From Pachysolen tannophilus NRRL Y-2460 (Eukaryota), in assembly GCA_001661245.1 (NCBI GenBank), contig KV454013.1:1272502-1336501 (forward strand): a stretch of DNA of 64,000 nt, written 5' to 3'. This document shows positions 19,002-57,064 of this stretch, in pieces. The position numbers were made by a program, and so were the translations under genes. The notes under the pieces were generated by a model. That model saw only the letters and a program-made list of their open reading frames with translations. It had not been told where the DNA came from and did no database searches. Within the stretch, counting starts at the first letter, position 1, and every line of letters starts with the position of its first letter.

Positions 19002-19309
19002 TTATTCAAAAAACTTTTCATATTTTCAAGTTTTCATCCATTTTTTTTTCTTTGGTTTGGTTTAGTTTGGTGAAAAATAGCCCTCAAAATGACCCAATTT
19101 GGAAAAATGACCAAAATGGGTCATTTGATGAGACAAAAAGGTTGCGCGTATTAAAAGTAAACTATAATGAATCGAATAGATTAAATAATTTATATTAATT
19201 GAGATCAAGTTGATAAAAGTTTATCAAAGTTGTGGAGTGGGAAGGATTTGTAGTATATTTTTTTGTATTTTCGTTTATTTTTTTTTTTTTTTTTTTGGTT
19301 ATAGTTATT

Positions 19310-36111: not shown

Positions 36112-36678
36112 ATGGACAACGAGGAAGACGGTAGTAATAACAAATACTATAATGATTTTTTGAAACAAGTAAACCGTGCTAAGTTAACCTATCAAACATA
36201 CTTGGATAAAATAACTCCACATGCGGTTTATAGGTGGGCATCTTTTTATGTTTTGATATTTCTGTTTATGCTCAGAATATTCATGACAGAAAGTTGGTAC
36301 ATTGTTTGTTATACCCATGCTATATATCTTTTAAATTTGTTTTTGGCCTTTTTGACCCCGAAGTTTGACCCCTCGTTGGAACAGGAGCAACGTGATGAAT
36401 CTATGGAAGAAGGAGCTGCTGCAATGAATGAGGAAGATTTCAGGCCTTTTATTAGAAGATTGCCCGAGTTTAAGTTTTGGTATAATGCTACCTGGGCTAC
36501 CATTTTAGCGTTGTTTAGTACATTGTTCAAATTCCTTGATATTCCAGTTTTTTGGCCAATTTTGCTCATGTATTTCATCATACTTTTCACGTTGACTATG
36601 AAGAAACAAATTCAGCACATGATTAAGTACAAATATATTCCATGGGATTTAGGTAAGAAACATTACTCAAGAAAATGA
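36112..36678 (+). CDS. RER1: Golgi-to-ER retrieval receptor
   Basis: LLNLFLAFLTPKFDP, FRPFIRRLPEFKFW, DIPVFWPILL, QIQHMIKYKYIP. Confidence 0.96.
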   Translation: MDNEEDGSNNKYYNDFLKQVNRAKLTYQTYLDKITPHAVYRWASFYVLIFLFMLRIFMTESWYIVCYTHAIYLLNLFLAFLTPKFDPSLEQEQRDESMEEGAAAMNEEDFRPFIRRLPEFKFWYNATWATILALFSTLFKFLDIPVFWPILLMYFIILFTLTMKKQIQHMIKYKYIPWDLGKKHYSRK

Positions 36679-39600
36679 TTGAATCTAGAACAAGAGGAAA
36701 AAAATTGGTTAACTATAATTTATATATATAGCTAAGTCGATTAAATGTCAGTGGACTGGGAATTTTTGAAATGGCAGTCAGTAATTTTATTGTTGATATT
36801 TTTCTCATTTTTTCTTTATAATTCTTTGTTGCACTCTACTGTATTTTATTATTTTATCGTTTCTTTCTTCGCCAAATTTTCTCATATACATATATATATA
36901 TACGTAAGTTTGAAAGTACCAAATTTGCTTTCAAGATAGATCAAAGAAGACAATTAATTAGAACTTTGAAAGTAGGATCAACTATGTTTTTAGTAAATTC
37001 CTTTAAGATTTATAAACACATTTTGTTTAGGCAAGTAAGAATGATTTTACTTTGGAGCTCGGAGCTCGGAGCTTGGAGCTTGATCTCATCTGTGAAATGT
37101 AAAATATTGGAAAAAAAAAATAATTTTGGTAAATGCAGTAAAACATTTGTTAACTTTTACTATTAATTTGAATTCTATCAAACTCTATTACAAGTTTTGA
37201 TTTCTAGTAATATAAAGCCGTTGTAGAGGAGCGAAAACATAAATATTATGTTTTCACTGCACCAGCAGATCATTTATCGCTCTAAAATCTATGATCATTT
37301 TGATTTGACAACATTTTTAAATAGTTCTCATGAAGTGCTATTCTTTTCTTGAAACCTACAGTATTGCAGTCAGCCTTAAAGTAAGTTATTCAAAATTTTG
37401 TCTTTCATAGTCACCATTACATTATTCTTTTAATTTCAAATGAATCTCAGAAAGCAAAAAAATTAAAAAACGAAAAACAAAAAAAATAGCAAAGAAAATG
37501 CAAAAAAAATGCAAAAAAAAAAAGTAAAAAAAAACATTTTGGCTATTGATGCAATCAATATTCAATCTTGAGAAATCAGAAATTATGATATCCTTCGAGG
37601 ATAATTTTAAAAAAATTGAAGTTTTACTTACTAGCTTTCATAAAAAAAATAAATATTTTTAAAATTATATGTAAAAAGAACTATCTCCAAGTTATTTTTA
37701 CAGAGTTGTTATATTAATTAATTTAAATTATTCAATAAGCGGTCCTGCCTAAGAACATTCTATATTCATAAAGATAAAGTGCCTGATTGGAAAACAACAA
37801 AAACGGTTGTTTCTGTTAAGCAAATACTGTAATTACAAAAAAAAAAAGCTAGCTTTCAGCAGAATTCAAAAATATCTCGTAAGAGCAAATTAATATCAGA
37901 AAGAAAGAATATATATTAGACAGTAATTCGTAATCAAGATCACTTCTATTAGGTCGCCAAAATTTTTTTTAGTTCAATGAAGACAAACATAAAAAAACAT
38001 TTGTGAACATATCATTGAAATCATGTTCTTGTTTAACTCGCAATCCTGAGAATTCAAAAAAATAATGGAAGCGATTAAATTCGAATACGTCTCTTTTAAT
38101 AAACGACTTCATTAATTAATAAAAAAGGTTAGTAAACGAAGGTAATCTTCCCGACGAATTACCTAACTTGGTATAAGTAGTTTCATTATTTCAGTTTGTA
38201 TCCGAGTTTCCAAAACGTAAATTTGCTTACAGTTATCTCAATCTTCAAGATATCACTTTCATCTTATAACCTCTCAGTACTACCGCAACGTTGTGCCCCC
38301 ACAATTTCTTTCTGACAACTGTGTTTATTGTTTATTCTCAAAGCAGCGGAATCAAACTTCATTTTACGATTGAAATCACTCAAGAAGCAAAATATTCATA
38401 CTCTACTGGTTCACATTCATAAGAACTTTCCATGAAGGAACTCATCCTATCTAAGTTCATGTGACATTTTTACTAGAATGAAGTTCATTTTGATTTCCTA
38501 TACTAAAATTTATTAAGAACTACAACCTATCAACCTTACTGTAACTTACTGATTTACAGAGGGCGTAAAATATTTTTTAAGTAACTTGCCTACATACAGC
38601 AAATTTCTAATTTCCTCCGAACTTAAAAGTCACGAAGACTCATGAAATGCAACATGCTACAGCGATATTAATTATTTTCTCATTTATGTTTCAATTTCCA
38701 TAGTGGGTGTTAAACACTGAAAAGTTCGAAACTTTCAACTTCAGCGTAACTCACAATAAGATAGCTTTCTTCGTTAGAGAAAGCAAAAAACAATTTAAAA
38801 CATGAGCTTATTTTATATAAAGAAATATCACAATTCAGTTAAAAAATTTATGGTTTTCATTTTCTCTTGAAACAAAAAAAGATCAAATAAAAGTCTTATG
38901 CTCCACTGTTTCCAGTCACTGTTAAAAGGAGGTTTCTAATTGTGGTTAACTACCGCACTGACTTTGAATTTTGTCTCAATATTACAAAGTTCTCAGAAAC
39001 ACTGGCGACTCTTATTAAATAAATTAAGAATAAATTAAAAATGAGTGTTCCTAACCGTTAGACATTTTTTTTCAACTTTTTGCTTGGAGACGTAGAAGGA
39101 AGGAAACATACTTCATAACTTAAAATCAATTCGACCAGTTTTCTAGCAATGAACACAAAACAATAATTCCTTGCGGGTTTTTCCATCCTTACCCAATCTT
39201 GATCTTAGAGCAACAGAGATACCTGTTGCGTAGAAATAAAAAACACTTTTTTGAAAATATGCCTGCTGAAGCAATATGACACTTAAGGAAGATAAACTAA
39301 ACTTTTGTTGATACTCAGACAAACTAATTTCTCGGAGCTGCAATTTGGCACCTTCTGGAACAGCAAGCAAATTGAATAAGGATAAGGTTCTCCCTTTAAT
39401 TTGACTCTCGTTAGTATAACATTCTAAGATCATGTCTAGAGCCTAAGGAAGAAGGTCTCATTGAGGAACTCTCAAATTAAAATATACGACATGTTTTGCT
39501 GGTCTAGAAAACGATAGTCACTAGGCGGGAACAGCAATCAGCCATACTGTGGGTAGCCTCATTAAATAGATGATAAGATATAGACGATACCGAGAGATAT

Positions 39601-42600
39601 CGGATGAGGTTAATTATCAAGAGTAGATCACTTTTTCTTTGTTTCAAACCCTACATTTATAAAGTTTGTAGGTTTATAGCTTTTATAAAGCAATTAGTCA
39701 ATAGATTTAGTTTTTTAAGCAATCATGACTTGCCATATGATTTTTACATATCATTAGTTATTTCGTATTTGCTACTTTCCTCATAACAATATTGATTAAA
39801 AGTTCCTCCGTAAACCAATTCAATTTAACACAAAGTCAAAGTTATATTTCTATTAGGCATTGTTAATGCTGCAACTGGGTTACTTGAAATTGGGCCTACT
39901 TTTCAAATTCATTTCAGGCATTCAGCAGCTCATATCTATTTTGAAAAAAGACACATGAACCAGAGTCGTTTTTGACTAGATTATATCAGTTGGTTTTTTG
40001 TAAATCCTTGTAATTTTCTTAAAGCTCTGAACATTTACAGCACTTAATAGTTATTTATATCCTTGAATAAGTATTATACTAACCCGAACTTTTTTTTTAC
40101 TATTTCATCAGAAAAGAGACAGTAAATGGAATACTTTTATCTTGCGCTACAGTGTCTTATCGGTACTTCTCGACCATCAAATGATAATTTTAACAGCGAA
40201 AAAAAAAAAAAGGTCCTTCAGAAATGTTCTAGGTGGTTAGGAACCCCTTCCCTGGCTACAGTAAGATACTAAAAACTTCATGCTGCTTTGTATAAAGTAA
40301 ACTCAAAATTGTAACTATTATCTTTATGAAACAGTCAATAATAAACTCGATATTTAACTCCATAGAGGCCTTCTTTTGGTTTTCCTGCAGAACTTCCATA
40401 TGGTGACAGTTACATCGTGGAAACTGGAAAAATCATTATTCTTGCTCTACCCTCTAACGTTTTTAAATGGCCATCTACAGGCAGTATCATCAATTCTCTC
40501 AATCGGTCTTCTCATCTTCTCATACTATCGATCCACTAACGATTAGAATAGATTTGGAAATATCCTTTCTGTATCTACAACTTTTGCCTGAACTAATTTA
40601 GCTTACAGGTGACTATTGTATGTTCGATGCCCATTTCAACTATCTAGATTTTTTGGCTTCCATAATTCAAATTAATGCATAAGCAATAGAGATGGCGAAC
40701 CTTAAAGTATTTTTAATTCTCTCAGACTGTTATAGCCAGAAAGCTTTTTAGTGCATATTCTGCCTGCAACAATAGGGTTAAGCCTCAGAAATGTATAGAT
40801 GCTTGCAAAACGAGATCTTTGGGAGATATGCATCTCAATTCAATTTTGTTTCATCAAGTTTAGTTCACATTAGTAGGTGTATACACAAAAAATAGTTTAT
40901 TTTCTTTCTGATCCGAGAAGAAATGCATTAATGCTTTTAATGAAGTGGTTATTTCTTTCCGGCTATAAGAAGAGGAATTTAAAAATTTGATTTTTTGAAA
41001 GAAAGTTCTTTAAATCATGTCGTACTTCATTAATAGTAAAAGTAGATAAAAAGTTTTCCTGCCATGTATATAGAATATTCAGAATAACAAGAAATAACGC
41101 ACTATTCATTAAATGTCAGATCTGACTACATCAAAAAATCTAAAACCCGTATGGAGATACTTATCCAGTTTTTTTTGGCATATAGAATATTTGAGTAAGA
41201 AAACAGATAACATCTAAAGGGCATATTGCAGTAGAAATTATTACTTTGTAAAAGTAGATTTGGGCTCCTAACCATCAGAAGTTTTTTATCATATACTATT
41301 GTGAGAGATGTTTTGCGTTTGTTATTTCGTTAAGTTAGGCGCTTTTGAATAACCCTTGGTTTCAATGATTTGTTTTGAAATCTTATATGGATAGTATTGT
41401 AAGTTGAAACTCCCATAAAGTCTAATTTGAGGAGACACAAGAAGGTGGGTCATTTATGTATGTTCTTGAGCTTCTGCAGTAATTAGTAAATCTAAAACAT
41501 TAAAAAGAAAGAAAAACTTTGGCTGGTTTTTCTTGCATCTACAATGTTTATAGCTACTAGTTTCAGATTTATCTCTCAAAATTAGGAGAGATGGAGTAAT
41601 TATTAGAAGTTCCTTGATCTTTCGTCTTAGGTCAGTGAACTGTCAATTTTGCTTCTAAATTGTAAACTGAATTCAAAGATATATGGAATTGTTATTATTA
41701 TCATCAACAAAATTTGCAGAATTAGAGTTTAGAACGTTGAGTGGCTATTATTTGGGTCTATAGTTTTCAAGTATTAACGTAAGGCAAGTATTGAGAATTG
41801 TACTGTCTGATTCCAGACAAACTTTAAATAATCTTCGCAGTCATAATTATTATATCTTCAGAAATTGGAATACCTAGTTGCTATTAATTGGCGAGTTAGC
41901 TATAGTGGATATAACTTAAAATATAATTTAAATAACATTTTATAATAATGGAGAAACTAGAAAGTAAAACTTCTAAATGTTCTTGGAAGGCTTTGACTAT
42001 CCTTAACTTAAATCAAGTTATTGGGAATGGTCATGCAAGATAATGTTTTGAGTGAATATAATTTGATCAATGTCATCTATAGGTAATTATTTCAGCTTAA
42101 TTTCAAAGAAACAATACGAGGCAAACGTAAACGAAGAAGAAATCCGACAAGGAATTTAGAAAAAATTGAAAGGTATTTAAATATTTTCTGAAAAAGGTCT
42201 GGTTTGATGCTAAGACAATTACATTTTACAAGAAGTACATAAAATAAATTGATATTTCAGATAAAGAGATGATGAATTCAAAGAAACAAAAGTCTATATA
42301 TGAAGTTTGGGGCATTCAAACATTGTCGGAGGTACTGAATAAAGCGATATTTTCTGAAATCCTCAGAAAATGAAGTGTAACCTCTGTTTGAAGAAATTAA
42401 TAAGTAAAACTATTTATCTTTAAATCCAGCGGACACATTCCGATGTTAATATTTTTTGGTATCCAAAAATGCAAATTCAGTATTATTTGAAATTTGGGAA
42501 AGAATTTTCATGTTTAAGTTTCTGTGCAAAAGTTAGCTGGAGTGCAAACCTGCTTGAAATGAAAAATAGTGAGTGGTAAGTGTTACATTCAGTAAAGAAA

Positions 42601-43431
42601 TATTAACAGAAATTAGACTAGACTAATTCGCGTATAACTAATAGTCGAATTTGATAAAAGTTTATAAGTTATTTGAATTAAAGAAATAGAAGAAAAGAAT
42701 ACTTATCTGTAGATATTTACAGATTTTTGAGTGAAATAACCTCTAAGATTTCTCACCATAATGCACTCTGAAATATCTTAGGCTAGAAAGGTTTGTATTT
42801 TTGATTGAAATTTCGAAACTTTTATGATTTTTCTACTTTAGAAGTGTTGAGAAGTACATAGTACAAGAGTAAAGAAATCAAAGGTCAGGAGATTGTATTT
42901 TTTGTGAGGGAATCAACCACCTATCGTAGAAGAGGCGGTTGAAAAAATATAATTTTGTTTTCACTTAAGCGTTAATTATTCAATTTCTTACGACAGTAAA
43001 TTTTATGTTTCAGTTAGCGTTCTTCAAATGACTGGAAAGCAGATCTTTCTGGCTCGTTTATTCACTGTCCATTTTTTTTCGTATTTTAGCTTGTTTTTGA
43101 TTATAGATATTGCTAATCTACATCACTTACTTACATTTAAATTTTTTTTAAAAAAGTAGGGCTGCATAGCATCTATTTTTCAAGTAGATGCATTAAGAAA
43201 AATGTTAGCAATTATCTCAGTAATATTATTGATATTATTTTTATTATTTATATTATTTATATTATGAGGAGAAATCAGAAATCATCATTGATTGTCACGA
43301 GTGTGATGTATTACTGAGGTTGTTTTCAAGCTGGAATTTGTACTTGGAAAATAAGTGAAAAGTTTGATGGTGAATACTCGTTTCAGAGAGAGTACTTTAG
43401 TATCATTTGTTATCATCGGCAAAGAAGTAAT
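36679..43431. other. 6.75 kb gene-free interval; candidate regional centromere / replication origin
   Basis: No credible ORF; by far the longest intergenic in the window; GC-skew switch; centromere-linked orthologues on both sides. Function is inferred. Confidence 0.65.
37054..37080 (+). repeat. Short tandem repeat (GGAGCTY)x4
   Basis: ggagctc ggagctc ggagctt ggagct. Confidence 0.8.
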
Positions 43432-45207
43432 ATGGGGAAAATCCGCCGAAGCAGAACTGGCTGTTTTAATTGCAAATCCAGGCGTCGAAAATGTGATGAA
43501 TCCAAGCCAGCTTGTCAAAATTGTCTTAAAAGTGGTAGGAATTGCGAATATGGTATAAGATTGTCTTTTGATGTTGATGACAGTAGATATGATTCGAATA
43601 ATTTTCATGTGAATGATAAAGGTGTGATAAAGTATGGCTTTAGAGGACGACCACGTTTGAAGGAAAGCATAGGCGAGAGAGGAACAAATGATTCCGGAAA
43701 TTCATCGTTTCAACAGATGACGAGTTCAAGGGAAACTCTAGGAAAAAATATTGATAGTCAATTAAAGCCTGTTGAAGATTCAACTGTACTCGATATTCTC
43801 AGTTCGGACTTTAACATCAACAATTTGTTGAACAGTCCTAAAAATTCGGAGTCTTTGAATGAGTCATTGAATTTAACTAATAACCAGAATCTTAATTGCA
43901 ACGATACTTCAGAGGTTTTGACTCTTGTGGATAATGAAAATTTATATCTGTCAACCCAATTGTCATATGCTGAAGAGAATATGATGTTGCAACATTTTTT
44001 TGCAAACTTGTTGCCGTTATTAGATTCACATCCAAATGCGCCTTGGCCTAAGCTAGCTTTAAAATATTGTGATTTTGAGATTGCTCGCAGTTGTTTTATA
44101 TCATTATCCTGTATGCATTTGTATGAAAGCACAGGAGATAAAGAATTTTATAGCAAAGGATTAGTTCATATTGATAATGCAATGGAATGCTTGAAAAATC
44201 ATATGAAACAGGGCCATATGTTAAATAACAATATGATAAATAGCCATTATAGTGGAAAAATCAATATCAATGTTGATATTATAGTTGGTCATTTAAAAGA
44301 AGAAACCATGAAGAAAAAACAATCAAGTTTTTTCGTTATTTTAATTTTGATATATGTTCATCTTTTATTTTCAGTTTTGGAATCAGGAAGGTCAATGCTA
44401 ACGAGAATTTTTTGGAAATTGTTTGCTACCATTACAGAAGATCCACTTTTCAAGCAAGTTTTAGGGAAAATAGATCAATCTCAAACTTTTATATGTGTTT
44501 TATCCTGGTTTGACACTATAACCGCAGTGGTTTCACCTGATTGTAGACTTCCGTATTGTAGTCCAAGATGTTATGGGACCAAAAATGATGCGATTTCAAT
44601 TGCTAAAATGAATGGATGCCCAGGTGAGATTTTCACTTGTATTGCTAAAATTTGTAAATTAAGAAGAGATATCAAATATAATCAGATTGAACTAGATGTA
44701 TTAATGAAAAAATATACAGAAATCAAATTTGAGTTACTTAATTATAGAGAATATGTATCATTACAAGTTGTAAATCAGATAGAAAATGATGATAGTATAT
44801 GTTTAAAATCTGAAGATAAATATGATGTTAGATTAAGGGGTGCACAATGCTGGGCATTATCGTCTTTAATCAAATTGGTTTCTGTTGTTAAACCTGAAGG
44901 TTATAGAGTAATAATACAGCAATTAATTAGTGAATTTATTCAAGTTTATCATTCAATGGATCCTAAATCTTCAATTATTGTTCAAATGGTTTGGCCTATA
45001 TTTAATGTTGGTTGTGAGTGTATCGAAGAACATGATAAGGAAAAATTGAGAATTTTTATGACTAGGTTATATCAGAATGCTCAGATGGGTACTTTATTCA
45101 CTTTAAGGAAAATTGTTGAAGAAGTTTGGGAAACTGGTAAGACATCTGAGGAAATTTTATCCGGTAAAGAATGGTTGGGATCTGGTATCGATTATTTACC
45201 GTTATGA
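43432..45207 (+). CDS. Zn(II)2Cys6 transcription factor with Fungal_trans_2-like C-terminal domain
   Basis: [34 protein letters not shown]-terminal WPIFNVGCE. Confidence 0.88.
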
Positions 45208-45381: not shown

Positions 45382-46932
45382 TTATAATTTTTGCATAGCA
45401 GCAACATCAGTGGATTGAACGTGATCTTCATCTTCTTCAATAGCTTGTTGCAATGCATCTAATGAGACTTTTTCATCTTCGATGACTAAGTTAATTTGTA
45501 ATTTCTTAATACCGTAACCAACTGGGATCAATTGATGAGCACCCCAGACTAAACCATCTTGTTCAATAGCTCTAACATTAGCTATTAATTCATCCATATT
45601 GGTTTCATCATCCCATGGTTTAACATCCAAGGTGACTATAGATTTAGCAGCTGGTTTTGGGCCCTTAGCAGCCTTCTTTGCAGCATATTCAGCTAATCTT
45701 TGTTGTTTCAATTTTTCAGCTTCTTCATCAACTTCTTCATCATCAGAACCAAACAAATCGACATCATCGTCATCTTCTGCAGCGGCAGAGGCAGCAGCAG
45801 CTGGAACTTTACCTGCAGGTAAAGTTGCAAATTCATCTGTGAATGAAGCAATGTGGTTGAACCATCTTGCAAAATTTGGAAATTCCTTTTGGAAATTTTT
45901 GTAAACGGTAACGTCAGCTTGTGTTGCTGAAGAACTAAATACAAGAAAATAATAAAAAAAAAAAAAAAGAAAAAAATTGTTAGCAGTCAATTCGAATTAT
46001 AAAAATTTTTTATTTTTTTTTCTTCTTCTTCTCAACTTTCTTTAATGAATCTAGTATGATCTATAGTTATACTTTATGGATCAGGAAAGTGAATTGGTTT
46101 TGATACTCATACAATGGGTCTTGAGTCCATCTCATAAACACGGACCAAAGATTATGTTCATCATTCTAAAAGTATAAATATAAATAACTAGATCAAAACT
46201 CAAAGCCAATCTTTTTTCTTTTAAAAATTTTTTTTCTTAAGCAATGAGTAAAAGAAAGAGAGAGCACGAGGAATGAAATATTAACAAAAAAAAAAAAATT
46301 TTTTTTTTTTTTTTTAAATGAATTTGTATACNNNNNNNNNNNNNNNNNNNNNNNNNNNNNNNNNNNNNNNNNNNNNNNNNNNNNNNNNNNNNNNNNNNNN
46401 NNNNNNNNNNNNNNNNNNNNNNNNNNNNNNNNNNNNNNNNNNNNNNNNNNNNNNNNNNNNNNNNNNNNNNNNNNNNNNNNNNNNNNNNNNNNNNNNNNNN
46501 NNNNNNNNNNNNNNNNNNNNNNNNNNNNNNNNNNNNNNNNNNNNNNNNNNNNNNNNNNNNNNNNNNNNNNNNNNNNNNNNNNNNNNNNNNNNNNNNNNNN
46601 NNNNNNNNNNNNNNNNNNNNNNNNNNNNNNNNNNNNNNNNNNNNNNNNNNNNNNNNNNNNNNNNNNNNNNNNNNNNNNNNNNNNNNNNNNNNNNNNNNNN
46701 NNNNNNNNNNNNNNNNNNNNNNNNNNNNNNNNNNNNNNNNNNNNNNNNNNNNNNNNNNNNNNNNNNNNNNNNNNNNNNNNNNNNNNNNNNNNNNNNAAAT
46801 ATTAAACAAAAAAAAATTTTTTTTTTTTTTTTAAATGAATTTGTATACATACCCTTCAATATAAGATTTATCAGCTAAGAAAGTATTCAAAGCAGCAACC
46901 GATTCAATCTTTGAGAAATCTGAAAAGCTCAT
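45382..46932 (-). CDS. EFB1: Translation elongation factor 1B alpha (EF-1 beta); exons 46932-46853 and 45934-45382
   Basis: 80-nt exon 1 MSFSDFSK...[57 protein letters not shown]. Confidence 0.97.
46077..46168 (-). ncRNA. SNR18: Box C/D snoRNA snR18 (U18) in the EFB1 intron
   Basis: Minus strand: box C ATGATGA (46164-46158), guide CTTTGGTCCGTGTTT followed by D' ATGA, box D CTGA (46084-46081). Same host intron as yeast snR18. Ends approximate. Confidence 0.9.
46332..46796. other. Assembly gap, probably spurious (flanks overlap)
   Basis: Near-identical ~55 bp (AAATATTAA..A-run..T-run..AAATGAATTTGTATAC) on both sides of the Ns. Confidence 0.9.
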
Positions 46933-47385: not shown

Positions 47386-48468
47386 ATGGCGGAGGTAGAG
47401 AAACCAACATTTCCGCAGGCGCTTACCACTTCTTTCCCGTCGCGGTTGAAGAATGAGAATACTGCGTTATTTATTACTTTAAATACCGGTAGGAATACAA
47501 AGAGAAATGCAACACATGTTGTTAATTATGCTGAATTTGATAATGATTTCTTCGATGATAATGATAATGACCAGGATTTTGTGTTAGAGAATGCATCTTC
47601 ATCGTTACCTCAGCAGAATAATCTTGATTTGTCAAATTTTGAAGGTAAATTGGCAACTATGACAAAACATTTGGAATATAATGAAAATGATTTAATATAT
47701 AATGCTTCATTACCAGAAATTTTAATTCCAATTAGAATTAGTTTGGATTATCAAACAAATAAAATTACTGATTTTTTCATGTGGAATATAAATGAAACTT
47801 TGATGACACCAGAAAATTTTGCAATTATTACATGTAATGATTTAGAATTACCAAATTCATATCTGAATCAAATTTCAAATTCAATAAGACAACAAGTTGA
47901 AGAATATCAAAATTTAGCATCAATTCCATTACCAGAAGGTGAAACTCATGTAATAATAAATTTATCAGTAAATTTAGATAAACAATTTTATGAAGATAAA
48001 TTTGAATGGGATTTAGCAAATTCACAATTACTTCCTGAAGATTTTGCTGAAACAGTTGCAAGAGATTTAGGTTTATCATTAGAATTTAAACTGGCAATTG
48101 CTCACTCATTACATGAAACATTATTAAAATTGAAAAAAGAATTCATAGAAAATAATCAATTAACTTTATTACAACAATATGATATTTCAAAATTGAATTT
48201 TTGTTATCAAACAACATCAAATCTGTATGGAATTAGTTATGATCAACAAGGTTTAAGATATGATACAAAAAATTTTGGAAGTGATTGGTCCCCAGCTGTA
48301 GAAACTTTATCACAATGGGAAATAGAGAAAAGAGAAATCGAAAGAGAAAGAAATATTAGAAGATTGAAAAGAGAAACTATGAGAATAGGTGATGATTATG
48401 GAGGACCAACAAAGAGACGTTATAGAAGAAGGTTGGATGAATTGGATGGATCATATAGAAAAAATTGA
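47386..48468 (+). CDS. SFH1: RSC complex Snf5-homology subunit
   Basis: VVNYAEFD, LIPIRI, DFFMWNINE, YEDKFEWDL, EIEKREIERERNIRRLKRE. Confidence 0.92.
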   Translation: MAEVEKPTFPQALTTSFPSRLKNENTALFITLNTGRNTKRNATHVVNYAEFDNDFFDDNDNDQDFVLENASSSLPQQNNLDLSNFEGKLATMTKHLEYNENDLIYNASLPEILIPIRISLDYQTNKITDFFMWNINETLMTPENFAIITCNDLELPNSYLNQISNSIRQQVEEYQNLASIPLPEGETHVIINLSVNLDKQFYEDKFEWDLANSQLLPEDFAETVARDLGLSLEFKLAIAHSLHETLLKLKKEFIENNQLTLLQQYDISKLNFCYQTTSNLYGISYDQQGLRYDTKNFGSDWSPAVETLSQWEIEKREIERERNIRRLKRETMRIGDDYGGPTKRRYRRRLDELDGSYRKN

Positions 48469-48534
48469 GAAAAAAAAAAAAAAAACAATTAAAAATTTGT
48501 ACATTTATAACTACTACTTAAAATAAATAAATAA

Positions 48535-48535
<1 letters not shown>

Positions 48536-48582
<47 letters not shown>
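48536..48582 (+). repeat. (AAAT)n microsatellite
   Basis: About 11 tandem AAAT units. Confidence 0.9.
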
Positions 48583-48634
48583 CAAGGTAGATAGATTGAT
48601 AAATAGATATTACGCGTAATTTTATCGAAGAATA

Positions 48635-49186
48635 ATGGACCAATCTCAACAATCCAAGAAATTGGTTGAACACTATTTACTTTCAAAATCTTCCTTTAAA
48701 ACTATAATAACAAAAGATCAATTTAAATTACAAGTAAACAAGGTGAATAAATCAGTTGATGATTCAACAATTGATGAATTATATAATTTATTAGCTTTCC
48801 AGAATAACAAAAGAGTAAAAGAGATCAGTCGAGCTATAAAACAAGATTTTCAAATTTCTGATATCAACAAGGATTTAACTAATAAAACACTGAATATCAA
48901 TACAAATCTGAGTTTTTCAGGAGAAGAAGAATTTTTATTACAAAGTGCTGATAAGGAAACATTAGAATCAGTTGTACAAGAATTAGAATTATTGAATGAT
49001 TGTTTAGGAAAAGAAATTCAAATAGTAGAATCACAATCATCTCAAATTTTACAAAATATAAATTCAACCATAGATGAGTTGAGTGATTTAAAATATGGAA
49101 AATTATTATTTATGTCTTCAATAGAAGAAGCTTGCAAATCATTAGAAAATTTAGAACAAAATATTATTAACAAAGTTTCTATATGA
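48635..49186 (+). CDS. NKP2: Probable kinetochore protein Nkp2/Cnl2 family
   Basis: N-terminal HYLLSKSSFKTIITKDQF and C-terminal IDELSDLKYG resemble Cnl2/Nkp2; convergent with TAD3 as for YLR315W/YLR316C; ACGCGT at 48612. Confidence 0.7.
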   Translation: MDQSQQSKKLVEHYLLSKSSFKTIITKDQFKLQVNKVNKSVDDSTIDELYNLLAFQNNKRVKEISRAIKQDFQISDINKDLTNKTLNINTNLSFSGEEEFLLQSADKETLESVVQELELLNDCLGKEIQIVESQSSQILQNINSTIDELSDLKYGKLLFMSSIEEACKSLENLEQNIINKVSI

Positions 49187-50277
49187 ACAAATTTTCATCA
49201 ACGTTACCTGTATGAAACTCATCTTTAGTACTGCACCATTTCCAACTATCAAATTTCCAATTTAAGTTATTGAATTTTTCAATACCAATACATAACCCAC
49301 TTGTCTTTTCTATGGCACCAGTTACAGGTGCAGATTTAATATATGTTAATTTCCCAATTCTTGAATGAACCAAAGCCATTGCACACATAGAGCATGGTTC
49401 ATGAGTTGTATAAACATGGTAGTTTAAACAAAGATAGTTTTTAATATTACAAGAATCAATATTAGTGTCTTTTTCTCCATGAGATTGTCTTCTTTGCAAT
49501 TCTTTGAGTGCAATTTCTTCTATACATTCAATAATAGTATGATTTAATGGGTTCTTCCATCTATTGTCAGTTTTTAAACTCATTGTTTCATTGGTGTTTG
49601 GATTTACAAAAAGAGTGACTATTGGAATTTCCTGTACAAAATTAATTATCGTTAGTATATAAAGAAATGCAATTTAAAAATAAAAGAAATTATTGTAGAC
49701 ATACCCCTTTATTTTCTAAACTTGATGAAATTTCACTAATTTTTTGTAAATATTTTTTCTCTCTTTCAATATCAATTTTAATTTGATTAAGCTCTTGAAT
49801 AATAGGATTACCTTTCCAAATAACTGGCCAATATTTTGCAGACCATTGCAAGGCCAAATCTTTTGAAGAAGGATAATTCTTAGGAACTTGAAAAATATTA
49901 ATTTCACTAGCTAGATCCAGATCGTATCTTACCAACATTGAAACAAGTTCATCTTTATTTTTGATATAGTCTTTGCTACAGACTAAAGTCAATAACTTAG
50001 TTGGAGTTTCTCCTTGTCGTATCTTTAATTGCTGAAATCTTTTCAAATATGGGAAATCAAGTGGATCGTTACCTGTAATATTCTCTTTAATAAATTTTAA
50101 TATAGAACTCGATTTTATCGAGGGAATCACCGCTACCCAAACTTCTTCCAATTGTACTTCATCATTTATTAAACCATTCTCGGTCCCAATTATTTTTTGC
50201 AAACAATCATCAAAAACATAGTTCTTCTCATCTATCTTGTGAAATGACCTATTTCTTCCACATTTTTTGTTCAACAT
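49179..50277 (-). CDS. TAD3: tRNA adenosine-34 deaminase non-catalytic subunit; exons 50277-49705 and 49631-49179
   Basis: WSAKYWPVIWKGNP; GTATGT..TACTAAC..CAG intron fuses two track ORFs in phase 0; HTI in place of catalytic HAE; EPCSMCAMALVHSRI. Confidence 0.92.
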
Positions 50278-50450
50278 CTTCTATTTTTTAATCCATATTA
50301 AAATTTATGACATTTCAAATGTTGTATTTTCAAAAATTCAAAATTTTTTCTGCATCAAATTTTGTTTTGTTTTGTTTTGTTTTTTTTTTTTTTTTTTTAC
50401 ATTATATAAATAACGCTTAATATCTCATCAAGTTAATTGATTTCTGATCA

Positions 50451-53051
50451 ATGATTACATTAGAACAGTTTTTTGCTGATAAGGAGATTCTAGAAGATAA
50501 TGATTACCAAGATTATATAGATCTATTAAAAAATTGTTTAATAACTGATCAATTGATAAAGAGGGATAATTTAGATATTCTTGATTCGATAAAGCAGCAG
50601 TTACTTAATCAAGAATCAAGTCATAATGAGTTGATAGACCATTTGTTATTGTTGTTATTAAAAAGAAAACAGAAAAATGTATTAGTTATGGGTTATGAAT
50701 TTGGAGGAGAATCAAGTGATGTTTCTTCAAAAATTTATTGCAGACATATAAATTTTCAAATTAGTTATTTAAAATCAACCGCGTTTAATATTTTACATTC
50801 TAGAATTGGTTCAAGATGTTTTATAGATTTATTGTTAGACCATAAAGGATTTTTACAAGTGAGAAACAGCAGGTCTGGAACTATCAATCATATTCAATTA
50901 TTTGGTGAAAATGGAATCTCTTTTGTTGGAAAAATTGTACCCAAAGATAGCTGGATCACAAAAGATTCAATGCTTTATAAAGAAGAACGTCAAGCTAAAA
51001 ATTTGAACCCAATGCTTGAGACGCCGAAAGAAATTTTAAGGTCAGTTTTTCACAAAGATTTTATTGGTAAAAGTCTGAAGTATATGCCAAAGAAATTCAG
51101 GAAATTTTATGGGTTATGCATAAAAATGATAAAAAATCATCAGCGATGCGATTATACTTATATAATAAATCATTATTGCCCTTTGAACAAAAATTTCAAA
51201 AATTATGATCTTAAATCTTCAAGCGATTATTATAAAGATGTAATTAGAGCTATTATATGCATTTATGACAAAGTTTTCCCTTTAGAACTTCTTGGCTCAA
51301 AATATAATAAACAAGTTCTTTTTTCCAAGATATCAAAATTTATAGGTGGAACTACAAAAGATAAGATTTTGATAACATCACTCTTGGATGATATTAGAAT
51401 TAAAGATATAAGTTGGCTAAGCACTAATGTGACTAATCAGCTGAAAATGAATAAACACGATTTTGAAAAAAGGAAAAAATTGATGACTTCTTTTTTGGAA
51501 TGGGTTTTTAAATATTATCTTTCAAAATTGGTACTGTGTTTTTGGCATGTTACCGAGGGCTCACAAACATCATCTTTATTTTTCTACAGACATCATGTTT
51601 GGAAAAAATTGTCAAAACCATTTATGGATAGATATTTTGAAAAATATTTATCAGAAGAAAGTTCTAACCAATGCGATTCTCATTATTCTTTCAAGAGTTC
51701 TAAAATTATACACGGAAAATTGAGATTACTACCAAAATCAAATGATTTTAGAGTCATAAGTATTCCAATGAAAGGTGATACAGAAGATAAATTTCATTAC
51801 TTGAATTTTCTAAATAATGAGATAAAGCCTGTCAGAGAAATATTGAAAGATTTAAGAAGAAAAAGTGACTTGTCCAATCAACGTTGTTTTGCCATAGATG
51901 ATATTACTAAAAAGTTGTCAAATTATAGGACGGAATTGATTCTGTGTAATGGTGAAATACCAGAATTGTTTTTCATAAAATTTGACGTTAAATCTTGTTA
52001 TGATACTATTCCCAAGGAAAAAGTACTCTCGTGTACAGAAAAGTTATTAGACAAAACTGAATACTTTCTATATAGAAATTTGGCTATTGGATCCGAAAAA
52101 AACCTACATTTTTTCAAACAGTCGAGTTTTATAACAAGTTTAAATAATGTTGAAGCCTTAAATTTTGTGGAAAATGGAATTGAAAAGTTCAAAAATAAGT
52201 TGATCGTTGATAAGATAAAAACTATAATTTTCAGCAGGGATGAAATTATGAAAGTCATTCACCAGCAAATTGATGATCTTTCTATTGTTATAAGAGGACG
52301 TTGTTATGGGAGAAAAAATGGATTATTTCAAGGGTTTCCGTTGTCTGCAGTTTTTTGCGATATTGTATATGATCAACTAGTAGAAGAAAAATTCCGTTAT
52401 TTATTGAAAGATAAAGATAGTTTGGTATTGAGATTAGCAGATGACTTTTTGATATTCTCCACAGACCCACGCAAGATCCATCAGACTTATAAATTGATCG
52501 AAACAGGATTTATGGATTATTCTATGAAAGTCAATAGAGACAAAACAATTTTCAAAATGAAGCTGAGAGCGCTGAAATCTATAGTGACTTTTTGTGGCTT
52601 GAATATAAATACTGTAAACTTGTCTGCAGTAAAAGATGGAGACTCATATGGTAATCTCAACTTTCTTGGAAGATCGTATAAAGGACTATATGACCGTCTA
52701 TTTTGGTTATTTAGTATGAGATTAACAAATCAAATGATTGATGTATCATGCGAGGAATCCGTGTTGGAGAACATTTTCATTGCTACTAAAAGTATTTTAA
52801 ACTCTTTTAAAATCTCGTCCAGGAATTTAAGGGGAATAGATGTTTTTGACGAATACCAGTTTTTACTATTTTGCCAAAGAATGGATACCTTTGTTGAGAT
52901 GAAATTAAATTTATTAGAAAATTATAATTGCAATTACTTCAAATTTAAGAAAGAAGGAAAACTGCAATTTGTAAAAGCAATATTTTCGGAATTACTACCG
53001 GTTCAGACAAAGTACAGAACTGTAATCTCTAAACTTCTGTTTCAAATTTAA
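50451..53051 (+). CDS. EST2: Telomerase reverse transcriptase
   Basis: NVLVMGY, CP motif, T motif FWHVTE, LRLLPK/FRVI, motif A KFDVKSCYDTI, B' GLFQGFPLS, C LRLADDFL, E FCG; syntenic with TAD3 and BUD6. Confidence 0.95.
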   Translation: MITLEQFFADKEILEDNDYQDYIDLLKNCLITDQLIKRDNLDILDSIKQQLLNQESSHNELIDHLLLLLLKRKQKNVLVMGYEFGGESSDVSSKIYCRHINFQISYLKSTAFNILHSRIGSRCFIDLLLDHKGFLQVRNSRSGTINHIQLFGENGISFVGKIVPKDSWITKDSMLYKEERQAKNLNPMLETPKEILRSVFHKDFIGKSLKYMPKKFRKFYGLCIKMIKNHQRCDYTYIINHYCPLNKNFKNYDLKSSSDYYKDVIRAIICIYDKVFPLELLGSKYNKQVLFSKISKFIGGTTKDKILITSLLDDIRIKDISWLSTNVTNQLKMNKHDFEKRKKLMTSFLEWVFKYYLSKLVLCFWHVTEGSQTSSLFFYRHHVWKKLSKPFMDRYFEKYLSEESSNQCDSHYSFKSSKIIHGKLRLLPKSNDFRVISIPMKGDTEDKFHYLNFLNNEIKPVREILKDLRRKSDLSNQRCFAIDDITKKLSNYRTELILCNGEIPELFFIKFDVKSCYDTIPKEKVLSCTEKLLDKTEYFLYRNLAIGSEKNLHFFKQSSFITSLNNVEALNFVENGIEKFKNKLIVDKIKTIIFSRDEIMKVIHQQIDDLSIVIRGRCYGRKNGLFQGFPLSAVFCDIVYDQLVEEKFRYLLKDKDSLVLRLADDFLIFSTDPRKIHQTYKLIETGFMDYSMKVNRDKTIFKMKLRALKSIVTFCGLNINTVNLSAVKDGDSYGNLNFLGRSYKGLYDRLFWLFSMRLTNQMIDVSCEESVLENIFIATKSILNSFKISSRNLRGIDVFDEYQFLLFCQRMDTFVEMKLNLLENYNCNYFKFKKEGKLQFVKAIFSELLPVQTKYRTVISKLLFQI

Positions 53052-53061
53052 AAACTATCGA

Positions 53062-54105
53062 TCATATGATATCAACTATACGGTTGCAACCAACTAGTCC
53101 ATATTTATCACTAGTATATAATCCACTTTCAATTAATTTTAACTCAGTCTCTTTCCAGTACTCAAATTTTAAACTCGTTTTCAAATCTAAGTCAATAAGT
53201 TTACAATCAACTTCAAAAAAAGAATCATTATTGATACTTATTAAAGTCTTTGGTTTATCTACTGTATCTTTAACTATATCATAATTATTTCTCGACAAAC
53301 TGTGAATATTCAAAAAAAGGGTAACATCACGTAAGGTCTGGCTCTCAATTAATTCGATAGGAACTTCATCGGCTGATTTTAAATTTAGTATTCTTCTGTT
53401 ATATGACTCTCTGCTTGAATCATAATACCGGTTCTGTAACATGAATAGATACCCAATTATTTTATTTTTCATAAAAAACTCAGTCAATATGAGTTCTAAT
53501 GAATTTATGTAATTAATAGAGTGTTCTGAATCACGTAATTTTTGAACAATTCTTTTACTCCAATTTGGTATTTTATTCTCACATAATAAATCCAAAGGAC
53601 AATTGATAATTTGCTTACCTCTGTATTTACTCAAGCAGCAATTTCTGCAATTCCTGGTTTTCAAATTATATAGCCATTTTGGTTTCATCTCGAGGACTAA
53701 TTCCGAATCACCATAATGTACTTTGAGATGGTTTCCTAGGTGCACAGTATTATTCACTTCATTTAAAAGATTTGGCATCAAAATTCCATGATTTCTAGCA
53801 AAAATACTGATTAATAATATTTCACCATTCGTAGAAGCAGGTACAGCAAGTTCTGGATTTGTTTTGATCAACTTGTGGTTTAAATCAAGCAAAAACTTGC
53901 TGGACAACTCAATGCACTTTGAATGTAGAAAATAATCTTTCAACAAGTCAGATTTTATTCTCTCATCACAATTTTTATTTCCAACTCTTTTTAACCTCAA
54001 TAATTTTTTAGTAAGATTAGGATCACTATTTCCAACATATTTTAGTAATATATTTGCGTTACCGCTTGAAAAATATACCCATTCTCTGGCGTCAAAAGTA
54101 GTCAT
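53062..54105 (-). CDS. IPK1: Inositol pentakisphosphate 2-kinase
   Basis: YFSSGNANIL, LEMKPKWL, CRNC, CPLDL, TLRDVT, IDLDLK motifs. Confidence 0.9.
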   Translation of the reverse strand: MTTFDAREWVYFSSGNANILLKYVGNSDPNLTKKLLRLKRVGNKNCDERIKSDLLKDYFLHSKCIELSSKFLLDLNHKLIKTNPELAVPASTNGEILLISIFARNHGILMPNLLNEVNNTVHLGNHLKVHYGDSELVLEMKPKWLYNLKTRNCRNCCLSKYRGKQIINCPLDLLCENKIPNWSKRIVQKLRDSEHSINYINSLELILTEFFMKNKIIGYLFMLQNRYYDSSRESYNRRILNLKSADEVPIELIESQTLRDVTLFLNIHSLSRNNYDIVKDTVDKPKTLISINNDSFFEVDCKLIDLDLKTSLKFEYWKETELKLIESGLYTSDKYGLVGCNRIVDII

Positions 54106-54415
54106 TATATTTATTACATAGAAACAAAAATTACAACTTGAAATTAAATCTATTCATCTTGCTTTAACTATATTACTCTGTTTTATTTAAGACCCCCGAG
54201 TGTCACTTCTAATGAACTCTGTTCAACAACTAATTGTTTAATCAATTAAATAGATCTTGATCTAGTACTAGTCAACACGAGAAAGTTTGATATTTCCCAA
54301 ACTACTCAATGTAATAGTAATCGAACAATTTATTCAACTCAGTTTCTGCTATTTTATTAAGACATGTTGACATATATAATTACACACTGAACAATATGCT
54401 TGATTTATCTTGTGT

Positions 54416-56768
54416 TCAGAATTCAGAAAACTGGCTCTTCAAATTTTGTTCATCTTTTAATTTTCTAAGTCTTTCTGTTTCTTCTATTCCACCAGATTTT
54501 TTCAATTTATTAGCACCAACAAAACCACCCAACTCTTCTTGAAAATTGTCAGTCATAGTCATCATCTTTTGCATTTCTCTTAATCTTTCTGCTTTCGCTA
54601 TAGCTTCCACCCTACCTTCATGATTAGGCTGCAATGCAACAACTTCTGATAACAAGGCATCTCTGATACCTGTTATACTTTCACCGGGTTCAGGAATTGG
54701 CAAATTCGGAATTGCTTTGAAATTAGGATTTTTGGTAAGTTGAACAGAGCATTCTTTAACTAATTCAAATGTTTCAAATGCCTTTTCTAGATCCTCTTTA
54801 AGATCCATTACTAACTCTTCTTGCAAGTTAAAGAATTGTTGTTCTTCACAAACAGTATTCAATTCGCTTTCCCAAATTTTTTTCCAATTTTGCTTTTCAG
54901 TTGAAATATATTCTTTTACTTTCTCTAAATTTTCATTAGCAGAAATCAATTCTTTAGAAATAAACAGCAATTGCTTCTGAGGAGGTCTTGCACGCCTTTG
55001 GGCGACGTCTTTCCTTAAAGCTTCAATGATGTCTTGTATATCATCCGTCCTGGTCAACAAGTTTTCACAATCTGTTGATAATTTTGAATGACAGCTTTCC
55101 ATATATACTCTGTTCGAGGACTTTGAAATGTTATAACTGGATGATTGGAATTCCTTGACTTTTTCTATTAAAGATGCTATTGTATCTTTGAACGTTGACT
55201 TATTTGTAGAACTAATCTGTTTAATAACAGTTAACTCTCGCCGTATATCTTCAATTTCTTTGAGGTTTGTATTTACTACAGAACTTGACTTCAGAACTGG
55301 TACATGAATTTCCTTTTCGTGTTCTTCTTCCACTGAATTCTTATCGCTCTTACCTGAATTTGTCACAATAGTTTGAATATTTGATAAAAGACTTTCTTGC
55401 ATCAGCGACATTTGCAATTTCAAAGAATCCATTTGAGCTTCCAAATTCTTTACTGCGAATGTGGTTGACTCTGGTTCATTCAATGATAATAAAGAACCAG
55501 GCTGAATATCATTTAAATATTGTTCTTCCAATTCATATGATACGTTTGAATTTGGGTCTTGAATATACAACTCTGGGAAAGAATCTGTTCCTGGAGAATA
55601 TGCAAATCTTTCAACAAATAGCAATCTTAAAGATGGAAACGTTATTGGAAATTCAATCTTTGCTTTTTTCACTTTTTGATTTATCTTTAAATATATTAAA
55701 ATTTCCTCATTATTTTGTTCCTCTCTGTGTTGTTGCGGCACTGGTTTACCATCTTCCAGCGAGGAAAAATTGTTATTTAATAATGAAGATCTTTTTGTTG
55801 GAGTATCATAAATTTTTTCATTTATATTTCCAGGTAAATCAGAGTCTCTATCTGGGGTGAAACTTGTTAGTTTAGCGTACTGATAAGCAGAAAATCTTTT
55901 GGACGCCCTTCTTTTCAACGAATCACCCTGTTGCAATTGTGATAGCAAATCTTTGGAATCTCTTTTATTCAAGATTTCTGGATTAGAGATAGAACTTAAT
56001 GATTGGGGTTGATAAAATGAAGAATGCGAGGATGAATTTTCTTGAATTGAATTGTTATCAGAAATATCGGTCGTAGTTCCAGCTGCAACTTCTAGAGTCT
56101 TTGAAAATTGGGAGGGAGTGCTTTCGCTGCTATTTGGGTATAACAGTGGACTTGGAATTGATCTAATATTTTGTTGACTTTCTTGTTGTTGTTGTTTCTG
56201 TTGCTGTTGCTGTTGTTGTTGTTGTTGTTGTTGATAAATCTTTGCAGAGGCTTGTTTTTTCTTCAAGTTTTGTAATAGATTAACAATTATTTCTCTAATT
56301 GAAGGTAGAAAATTATCTAAACTTTCCTGGGATGGCTCTTCGCACAAAGCTTCTTCTAACACCAATCTCAAAGTATGAGGCACATCTCCTAAATCGCTGA
56401 CATCGACTCCAGAATTTGAAAAAGATCGACAAGCAATCTTGAATTCATTACCAAGATTAACATAACAATCAGAAACATCATTTTCAGTGGCCTCACGTTT
56501 CGCCCATTGTGTAAGACTTTCCAACAATTTTTTAGTAGCAACTAGTAACCTTGTAACACTTGATTCAATTGTAATCTACATAGATAATACATTCATTCAA
56601 AGTTTGAAACTCGAGTTAGCATATGATCTAAAATCACAAATTACTAAAATACCAAAGAAAATAAAAAATAAAATTAAAAAAAAAAAAAATCTAACTTACT
56701 GATTGTTTCTGTTTAGATATCGAGGCCATCTCACCATTGGAATTTCCATTCGACAGAGGCATTTGCAT
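54416..56768 (-). CDS. BUD6: Actin/formin-interacting polarity protein; exons 56768-56700 and 56575-54416
   Basis: GTAAGT..TGCTAAC..TAG intron restores IESSVTRLLVATK; LKRRASKRFSAYQ, LRLLFVERFAYSPG, WKKIWESEL, KLKKSGGIEE; poly-Q tract. Confidence 0.93.
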
Positions 56769-57064
56769 TCAACACCAACTGATCTGTTTCTCTCTATATG
56801 AACTCAATGTTCTTACTTATAATAATAAACTCATCAACTTCTTCTTCTTCTTCTTGTATATTGGCGCTTAATTTATTGAAGTCTGCACAGAATTTGATAT
56901 TCTGGAAACGACTTTTGTTTTTTTTTGATATAAAATATTTAACGGCGCGTAATTCTTTTCTCTGTAATCTAAAGGATTTAAACAAAGGGTATTTCGAATT
57001 CGAAAGAGATTACAAGATAGAAAAAGGAATATTGAATGAGTATATAGCTTTGAATGTGCTGGAA

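What the first reader, a model, noticed from the sequence alone, without database searches (positions are those of the whole stretch)
38200..42900. GC-skew inversion inside the desert, an imprint of a long-lived origin
Hand counts on the + strand: six 60-nt lines within 38221-38640 gave about G41/C83, and six lines within 42121-42900 gave about G78/C31. The lines were sampled by eye, not exhaustively. The centre (39.4-40.9 kb) is mixed, with the last clearly C-rich lines ending near 40.7 kb. A C>G to G>C switch in non-coding DNA is the polarity expected at a stable bidirectional origin, as described for C. albicans centromeres. This is independent support for the centromere call and suggests where its core lies.
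Basis: partly seen in the sequence, partly recalled or inferred. Interest (0 to 1): 0.75.

Follow-up and report, generated by a model that had tools for sequence, protein, structure and literature searches.

The report
GC-skew switch in a yeast centromere candidate
A 6.7-kb gene-free stretch next to the RER1 gene of an AT-rich budding yeast really does flip from C-rich to G-rich at its middle, a pattern known from Candida albicans centromeres, but the sequence alone cannot show whether replication or transcription made it.

Summary
Full counts give GC skew -0.118 over 38200-40700 and +0.184 over 40700-42900. The cumulative G-C minimum is at 40770. A negative-to-positive switch this strong occurred in 0 of 5000 base shuffles and 0 of 3000 100-bp block shuffles.

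The arms are not decayed genes. They have no period-3 signal, random ORF lengths, negative codon scores, 0 Pfam families in six frames, and no repeats, inverted repeats or retroelement traces.

The host uses CTG=Ala, so it is a CUG-Ala clade yeast. The desert abuts RER1, which flanks ancestral centromere CEN1 in three other yeast orders (PMC12711049). That supports the centromere call independently.

Three things count against a firm origin reading:
- The opposite AT skew expected from Koren et al. 2010 is not significant.
- Genes and their 200-bp upstream regions carry the same GC skew (+0.18, +0.17), so divergent non-coding transcription is a live rival.
- No genome, RNA or ChIP data could be used.

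Verdict: real feature, interpretation partly supported, a new member of a known kind.

The parts
36679..43431 (.). ORF-free desert of 6753 bp between RER1 and a Zn2Cys6 gene. It is the largest gap between ORFs of 150 aa or more in the window.
   Evidence: ORF lists and the intergenic table. The next largest gap is 2704 bp.
36679..37999 (.). Ordinary AT-rich flank downstream of RER1, with poly-A-rich tandem tracts. GC is 0.258 and there is no consistent skew. It is not part of the skewed core.
38000..40770 (.). Left arm, C>G on the + strand. It is patchy, with two steep C-rich stretches (about 38.1-38.7 kb and 39.9-40.8 kb) around a neutral middle.
   Evidence: 30 of 45 lines are C>G and 9 of 11 250-bp bins are negative.
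39271..41242 (.). Interval holding the skew switch. The point estimate is 40770-40775 and this interval is the bootstrap 95% range. It is the inferred fork-divergence point or core, if the origin reading is right.
   Evidence: a single change point at 40775 with log-likelihood gain 17.7, and 83% of bootstraps fall within 40400-41000.
40771..43431 (.). Right arm, uniformly G>C on the + strand (skew +0.196).
   Evidence: 33 of 43 lines are G>C and 11 of 11 bins are positive.
36112..36678 (+). RER1 gene, a centromere-adjacent marker gene in other budding-yeast orders.
   Evidence: Pfam Rer1 with E = 6.8e-73. Homologues named RER1. The one CTG codon is read as Ala in the database copy. Literature.
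43432..45207 (+). Zn2Cys6 fungal transcription factor gene on the right flank. Its upstream region is the right arm.
   Evidence: Pfam Zn_clus and Fungal_trans_2.

Best explanation
The 5.4-kb core (about 38.0-43.4 kb) of the RER1-adjacent gene desert is a unique-sequence, non-coding region. It is most likely the small regional centromere of this chromosome in a CUG-Ala clade yeast. Its strand composition flips at about 40.77 kb.

The most economical mechanism is the one proposed for Candida albicans centromeres. One fixed, efficiently used bidirectional replication origin fires inside the region generation after generation. DNA to its right is then always copied with the + strand as leading strand, and DNA to its left with the + strand as lagging strand. 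Strand-specific mutation enriches G over C on the leading strand of each arm.

Shown here: the switch is real and its polarity is right; there is no coding, repeat or retroelement content; G+C is raised; and the desert sits beside RER1.

Inferred: that the cause is replication rather than transcription; that an origin sits at the switch; and that Cse4 binds here.
For: - The switch is real and strong.
- It runs negative to positive, with arms of about 2.7 kb each. This compares with the roughly 3-kb arms and negative-to-positive definition in Koren et al. 2010.
- Core G+C is 0.310, against 0.254 for other non-ORF DNA. Koren et al. link skew with raised G+C.
- Its change-point statistic (246) is the largest of 16 intergenic regions. 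The next is 142, in a region that holds unannotated gene parts, and the other 14 are 78 or less.
- There is no coding remnant although the skew is at full genic strength. Period-3 signal is 0.90 and 0.88, against 4.81 in genes and 1.01 in shuffles. ORF lengths are as in shuffles and codon log-odds are -0.19 to -0.24, against +0.233 in genes. Pfam finds 0 families in 6 read-through frames. The 96-aa ORF has no homologue. This argues for an ongoing asymmetric process rather than a fading relic.
- No annotated gene can explain the left arm. The two left neighbours are on the + strand, and the nearest - strand ORF ends at 32028.
- Typical upstream skew fades within 400 bp, whereas the right arm is 2.66 kb long.
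- Position: RER1 flanks CEN1 in Phaffomycetales, and that centromere location is conserved with two further orders.
Against: - The opposite-sign AT skew that accompanies the GC skew in C. albicans is not significant here. The statistic is 181 at 39627, reached by 90 of 3000 base shuffles and 499 of 3000 block shuffles.
- Arm AT skews are -0.008 and +0.019.
- All 25 ORFs have sense-strand G>C (mean +0.181). The 200 bp upstream of ORFs has +0.166 with AT skew near zero, the same signature as the arms. Divergent transcription would therefore look identical.
- The left arm is patchy.
- With 500-bp block shuffles, 52 of 3000 reach the observed value.
- This is one locus only. The one-per-chromosome criterion could not be tested because no genome is held.
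- Skew-based candidates in L. elongisporus included transcribed regions.
- Conservation of the RER1-CEN link is documented for Saccharomycetes orders, not for the CUG-Ala clade.
Confidence: 0.42

Rival explanations
1. The asymmetry is transcription-associated. Two non-coding transcription units diverge from about 40.8 kb. One could be a long leader or upstream transcript of the Zn2Cys6 gene on the + strand, the other a - strand non-coding RNA. They would impose the same sense-strand G>C bias that this genome's genes and 5' regions carry. This is compatible with the region being a centromere, since centromeres are often transcribed, but then the skew says nothing about an origin.
For: Sense-strand GC skew is positive in 25 of 25 ORFs (mean +0.181, sd 0.081). 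The 200 bp upstream of ORFs has +0.166 (17 of 21 positive) with AT skew -0.024, the same GC-only signature as the arms. McLean and Tirosh 2011 (PMC3315797, abstract read) report gene-linked skews that extend into promoters and UTRs in unicellular fungi. Ola et al. 2020 note that two L. elongisporus skew candidates lie in strongly transcribed, probably mis-annotated regions. The right arm lies directly upstream of a + strand gene.
Against: Upstream skew normally fades by 201-400 bp (+0.053), and the arms are 2.7 kb. No Rfam family matches in the desert. No - strand gene lies near the left arm.
Confidence: 0.33
2. The arms are two oppositely oriented relic genes (pseudogenes) or decayed mobile elements. 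The skew is then the leftover of former sense strands.
For: The arm orientation (left as a - strand gene, right as a + strand gene) and the coding-like G+C of 0.31 fit this. The longest open stretch on the - strand of the left arm, 99 codons, is reached by only 29 of 500 shuffles.
Against: Pfam finds 0 families at E up to 1 in six frames read through with X. Period-3 signal equals that of shuffled sequence. Codon log-odds are negative in all frames and on both strands. The other three strand-arm combinations have ordinary ORF lengths. The 96-aa ORF has no homologue among 14 candidates. There are no internal or window-wide repeats; the longest non-self match is 54 nt at 76% identity. A relic old enough to lose all of this should also have lost a full-strength skew.
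Confidence: 0.05
3. The pattern is a chance juxtaposition of a few compositionally odd patches with no common cause.
For: The left arm consists of two C-rich patches separated by 1.2 kb of neutral sequence. With 500-bp blocks, 52 of 3000 shuffles reach the statistic. Only one locus was examined.
Against: No shuffle reaches it among 5000 base shuffles or 3000 block shuffles at 20-200 bp. All 11 right-arm bins are positive. Binary segmentation finds a single change point.
Confidence: 0.06

Closest known systems
Candida albicans / C. dubliniensis small regional centromeres with a constitutive early origin (Koren et al. 2010, PMC2924309; passages read)
   Same: A long ORF-free region of unique sequence, a negative-to-positive GC-skew switch, arms of about 3 kb, G+C raised above other intergenic DNA, and no conserved motif or repeat.
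   Different: There is no significant opposite AT skew and no local G+C dip at the switch. The lineage differs (CUG-Ala clade, not Serinales). Cse4 binding, ORC binding and early replication are unknown here. One-per-chromosome could not be checked.
Ancestral CEN1 of Saccharomycetales, Saccharomycodales and Phaffomycetales (Hession et al. 2025, PMC12711049; sections 4, 9, 11, 15 and passages read)
   Same: RER1 lies immediately beside the candidate region, as it does beside CEN1 in Starmera, Wickerhamomyces and Cyberlindnera.
   Different: SSL1, the partner on the other side in Phaffomycetales, is not among the window's 27 ORFs with a Pfam annotation. The right side instead carries an SFH1-NKP2-EST2-BUD6-like block. 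The structure is neither a short motif, an inverted repeat nor a Ty5 cluster, which are the three types that paper describes.
GC-poor-trough, inverted-repeat and Ty5-cluster centromeres of Pichiales and others (Kuraishia, Komagataella, Ogataea, Pichia; PMC3879985 and PMC13017519, passages read)
   Same: These are the closest named relatives by RER1 identity (65-69%). The size range overlaps; Ty5-LTR clusters of Cyberlindnera sargentensis are 4.4-8.9 kb.
   Different: The core here is not GC-poor. It has no inverted repeat, no reverse transcriptase or integrase trace and no repeated LTR-like copies.

Membership tests
Koren-type skewed regional centromere/origin (C. albicans type) | Long ORF-free intergenic region (4-18 kb in C. 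albicans) | tested here: met
   6753 bp, the largest of 16 intergenic regions in the window.
Koren-type skewed regional centromere/origin (C. albicans type) | GC skew switching from negative to positive inside that region, beyond chance | tested here: met
   V = 246-248, z = 8.1, reached by 0 of 5000 base shuffles and 0 of 3000 100-bp block shuffles. The switch is at 40770.
Koren-type skewed regional centromere/origin (C. albicans type) | Weaker AT skew of opposite sign switching at essentially the same point | tested here: not met
   The positive-to-negative AT statistic is 181 at 39627. It is reached by 90 of 3000 base shuffles and 499 of 3000 block shuffles, and it lies 1.1 kb from the GC switch.
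Koren-type skewed regional centromere/origin (C. albicans type) | G+C content raised relative to other intergenic DNA | tested here: met
   The core is 0.310, other non-ORF DNA 0.254 and ORFs 0.300. The rise is modest by 500-bp tiles: 0.311 against 0.274 +/- 0.054.
Koren-type skewed regional centromere/origin (C. albicans type) | Exactly one such site per chromosome | not testable with these tools
   No whole genome is held. Only this 64-kb window was available.
Koren-type skewed regional centromere/origin (C. albicans type) | Cse4/CENP-A occupancy, ORC binding and earliest replication | not testable with these tools
   These need ChIP-seq, Hi-C and replication timing.
Ancestral CEN1 location | RER1 immediately adjacent to the centromere interval | tested here: met
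   RER1 ends at 36678 and the desert begins at 36679.
Point centromere (CDEI-CDEII-CDEIII) | CACRTG, then a highly AT-rich spacer, then a CCGAA element | tested here: not met
   One motif pair was found, with a 126-bp spacer of only 73% AT. The AT-richest 100 bp in the core is 82% AT. The motifs were recalled, not taken from a tool.
Inverted-repeat centromere (Komagataella, C. tropicalis type) | Kilobase-scale inverted repeats flanking a mid region | tested here: not met
   There are only low-complexity inverted matches of 44 nt or less. blastn self-comparison gives no match longer than 54 nt.
Ty5-cluster centromere | Ty5-like coding remnants and repeated LTRs | tested here: not met
   Pfam finds 0 families in six frames. 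There are no repeated copies. Highly diverged solo LTRs cannot be excluded.
Relic gene pair | Residual codon periodicity, long ORF fragments or protein homology | tested here: not met

The most novel reading that the evidence does not exclude
The desert is a C. albicans-style, sequence-featureless, epigenetically specified centromere coupled to a constitutive origin, in the CUG-Ala clade (Alaninales). It sits at the ancestral RER1-linked CEN1 position. If so, that centromere position has been held since before Pichiomycetes and Saccharomycetes split. It would also mean the centromere-origin coupling that writes a skew into DNA is not confined to Candida relatives and Yarrowia.
Probability: 0.35. 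Interest if true: 0.6.

Novelty: new member of a known kind. Interest (0 to 1): 0.45.

Why it matters
My two literature searches and the passages I read found no described centromere in the CUG-Ala clade. Hession et al. 2025 say centromere structure in most other orders remains under-investigated.

If this locus is confirmed, it would add a 'featureless, skewed' centromere type to a lineage whose nearest studied neighbours (Pichiales) have motif, inverted-repeat or Ty5-cluster centromeres. It would also extend the RER1-CEN1 positional conservation to a further order.

It gives a sharp, cheap target of 39.3-41.2 kb for Cse4 ChIP, Hi-C and origin mapping.

If the skew turns out to be transcriptional, that is a useful warning: in this genome, skew alone cannot mark origins.

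Tried and rejected
- The whole genome for a one-per-chromosome scan is not held.
- Earlier scan notes by place, words and sequence returned nothing.
- Sequencing runs: no RNA holder was listed, and 5 rows (2 studies) hold the DNA, one of them possibly the source. Expression could therefore not be examined.
It was redone with stops read as X and found 0 families.
- Rfam found nothing inside the desert.
- tRNA genes: none in the desert.
- Tandem, direct and inverted repeats: only low-complexity A/T-rich matches.
- A point-centromere-like pattern was not found.
- RER1-based fetch of 80 metagenome loci: the best is 62% identical, so there is no close relative. In the 17 loci examined (15 of them over 10 kb), the gaps directly flanking RER1 are about 2 kb or less. 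They gave no replicate of the desert.
- Supplementary Data 3 of PMC13017519 lists Ty5-cluster coordinates for five species, none from Alaninales. That paper's supplementary figures PDF was too large to read and may show more.
- The single phmmer-versus-representatives job was not spent. One frame of six would have changed little.
Full report
**Setting.** The window is AT-rich (about 28-31% G+C in 2-kb windows) and densely packed with intron-poor ORFs that carry fungal Pfam families.
- The ORF at 36112-36678 is RER1 (Pfam Rer1, E = 6.8e-73).
- Its database copy is identical at 187 of 188 residues. The only difference is Ala in place of Leu at the single CTG codon. The annotators therefore used CTG=Ala, and the organism belongs to the CUG-Ala clade (Pachysolen-like).
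- The best named RER1 relatives are Kuraishia, Ambrosiozyma and Ogataea at 65-69% identity.
- No whole genome is held.

**The observation.** Between RER1 and a Zn2Cys6 transcription-factor gene (43432-45207, +) lie 6753 bp with no ORF of 150 aa or more. This is the largest such gap in the window; the next is 2704 bp.
38221-38640 has G48/C90 and 42121-42900 has G139/C83. 38200-40700 has skew -0.118 and 40700-42900 has +0.184. The cumulative G-C minimum (-97) is at 40770.
The counts were accurate, but the selection overstated the right arm.
- The negative-to-positive change-point statistic (248) exceeds all 5000 base shuffles (79.5 +/- 21.4). It also exceeds all 3000 block shuffles at 20, 50, 100 and 200 bp. 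8 of 3000 reach it at 300 bp and 52 of 3000 at 500 bp (repeated with z = 8.1).
- Segmentation finds a single change point at 40775, with a bootstrap 95% range of 39271-41242.
- The right arm is uniform: 11 of 11 250-bp bins are positive. The left arm is patchy: 9 of 11 bins are negative, and it is neutral to slightly positive at 39.25-39.75 kb.
- The first 1.3 kb of the desert (36679-37999) is ordinary AT-rich flank (G+C 0.258) without consistent skew.

**What it is not.**
- The coding half can be rejected.
  - Six frames read through with X at stops hit 0 Pfam families at E up to 1.
  - Period-3 signal-to-noise in 300-nt tiles is 0.90 (left arm, n = 17) and 0.88 (right arm, n = 16). Genes score 4.81 (n = 215) and shuffled desert scores 1.01.
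  - The longest open stretches match shuffles on three of four strand-arm combinations. On the fourth (left arm, - strand, 99 codons), 29 of 500 shuffles reach it.
  - Best-frame codon log-odds are -0.19 to -0.24, against +0.233 +/- 0.115 for genes.
  - The 96-aa ORF at 39143-39433 (-) has no homologue.
- The desert holds no Rfam match and no tRNA.
- It has no tandem, direct or inverted repeats beyond low-complexity A/T tracts.
- blastn finds no self or window match longer than 54 nt.
- It has no CDEI-CDEII-CDEIII-like arrangement (motifs recalled).
- The region is therefore unique, non-coding DNA. It is not a point centromere, an inverted-repeat centromere or a recognisable Ty5 cluster.

**Why the skew is still ambiguous.** In this genome, strand asymmetry of this size is the normal mark of transcribed DNA.
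- All 25 ORFs of 150 aa or more have sense-strand G>C (mean +0.181, sd 0.081), with A>T of +0.079.
- The 200 bp upstream of ORFs carries +0.166 (17 of 21 positive) with AT skew about zero. That is the same GC-only signature as the desert arms (-0.118 and +0.184, with AT -0.008 and +0.019).
- The desert thus looks, compositionally, like a divergent pair of transcription units.
- Against that reading:
  - upstream skew normally fades by 201-400 bp (+0.053), while the arms are about 2.7 kb each;
  - no - strand gene lies anywhere near the left arm.
- Expression could not be examined.

**Comparison with the known signature.** Koren et al. 2010 (PMC2924309, passages read) describe, for all C. albicans centromeres:
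- a GC skew that changes from negative to positive within a long intergenic region;
- association with raised G+C;
- a weaker AT skew of opposite sign switching at essentially the same place.

They interpret this as the footprint of a constitutive origin. They found similar once-per-chromosome patterns in L. elongisporus and C. lusitaniae, and an AT-only pattern in Y. lipolytica.

Here three of these four sequence features are met: the long desert, the negative-to-positive GC switch, and G+C of 0.310 against 0.254 in other non-ORF DNA. The AT criterion is not met. The positive-to-negative AT statistic (181, at 39627) is reached by 499 of 3000 block shuffles. The one-per-chromosome criterion and all experimental criteria are untestable here.

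Ola et al. 2020 (PMC7263194, passages) caution that three of the nine L. elongisporus skew candidates may not be true centromeres: one lies beside the rDNA and two lie in strongly transcribed regions.

**Independent support for a centromere at this place.** Hession et al. 2025 (PMC12711049; sections 4, 9, 11, 15 and passages read) make three relevant points:
- Centromere locations are largely conserved among Saccharomycetales, Saccharomycodales and Phaffomycetales.
- In Starmera, Wickerhamomyces anomalus and Cyberlindnera sargentensis, CEN1 lies between RER1 and SSL1.
- RER1 stays next to a centromere even after an arm exchange in Barnettozyma.

Haase et al. 2026 (PMC13017519, passages and Supplementary Data 3) report that centromere-linked genes remain centromere-linked across Pichiomycetes and Saccharomycetes. 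In this window the desert starts one base after the RER1 stop codon.

From recall, not from a tool:
- RER1 is YCL001W, the first ORF left of CEN3 in S. cerevisiae.
- Several genes in the left 36 kb resemble CEN3/CEN14-proximal genes. These are the bL27m/MRP7-like ORF, the HRB1/GBP2-like ORF, the PLD-type PGS1-like ORF, EF3, and a HAD-CofD-phospholipase B trio.

Family-level identity was tested; orthology and systematic names were not. SSL1 is not among the ORFs annotated in the window, so only one side of the ancestral arrangement is present.

**Verdict.**
- The desert is a good centromere candidate on positional grounds. It resembles the C. albicans type of small, unique-sequence regional centromere. 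I put the chance that it holds the centromere at about 0.6.
- Whether the skew reports a long-lived origin (about 0.4) or divergent non-coding transcription (about 0.33) cannot be settled from this window.
- The searches I ran found no described centromere for the CUG-Ala clade, so this would be a new member of a known kind, not a new kind.

Noticed in passing
36112-36678 (+): The database copy of this RER1 protein has Ala where table 11 gives Leu, at its only CTG codon. The genome was therefore annotated with CTG=Ala (NCBI table 26), which places it in the CUG-Ala clade.
   Followed up: partly
10450-36678: The left part of the window carries ORFs of these families: EF3, a PLD-type (PGS1-like) ORF, bL27m (the best PDB match is yeast 54S ribosomal protein L2), HRB1/GBP2-like, HAD, CofD-like, phospholipase B and RER1. 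From recall, their S. cerevisiae counterparts cluster next to CEN3 and CEN14. That suggests wider synteny with ancestral CEN1. Orthology was not tested.
   Followed up: partly
47386-55432: The right-hand block carries SNF5-family (SFH1-like), NKP2, telomerase reverse transcriptase, IPK1-like and AIP3/BUD6 ORFs. From recall it resembles the S. cerevisiae chromosome XII YLR315W-YLR321C neighbourhood. The desert would then be a synteny junction. NKP2 is a kinetochore gene only 5 kb from the candidate centromere, which is probably coincidence.
   Followed up: no
46077-46169 (-): An Rfam SNORD18 (C/D box snoRNA) match at 38.5 bits, E = 0.00021. This is just below the gathering score of 41.
   Followed up: no
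19050-21164: A G>C stretch of about 2.1 kb upstream of the HRB1-like ORF (21165-21995), with small + strand ORFs at 19310-19645 and 20869-21093. It probably holds an unannotated upstream exon or small gene. It is the second-largest skew sum among the intergenic regions.
   Followed up: partly
9814, 9822-10213, 13708-14005, 18579-18950, 46332-46796: Runs of N, 1528 in total, all in intergenic positions. Their content could not be examined.
   Followed up: no
37052-37082 and 37451-37534: A 7-nt tandem repeat (TTGGAGC, 4.4 copies) and A-rich 11-23-nt tandem tracts in the AT-rich flank just downstream of RER1, outside the skewed core.
   Followed up: no
49690-50277 (-), 56798-59053 (+): Two ORFs (195 aa and 751 aa) with no Pfam family at E up to 1e-5.
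   Followed up: no
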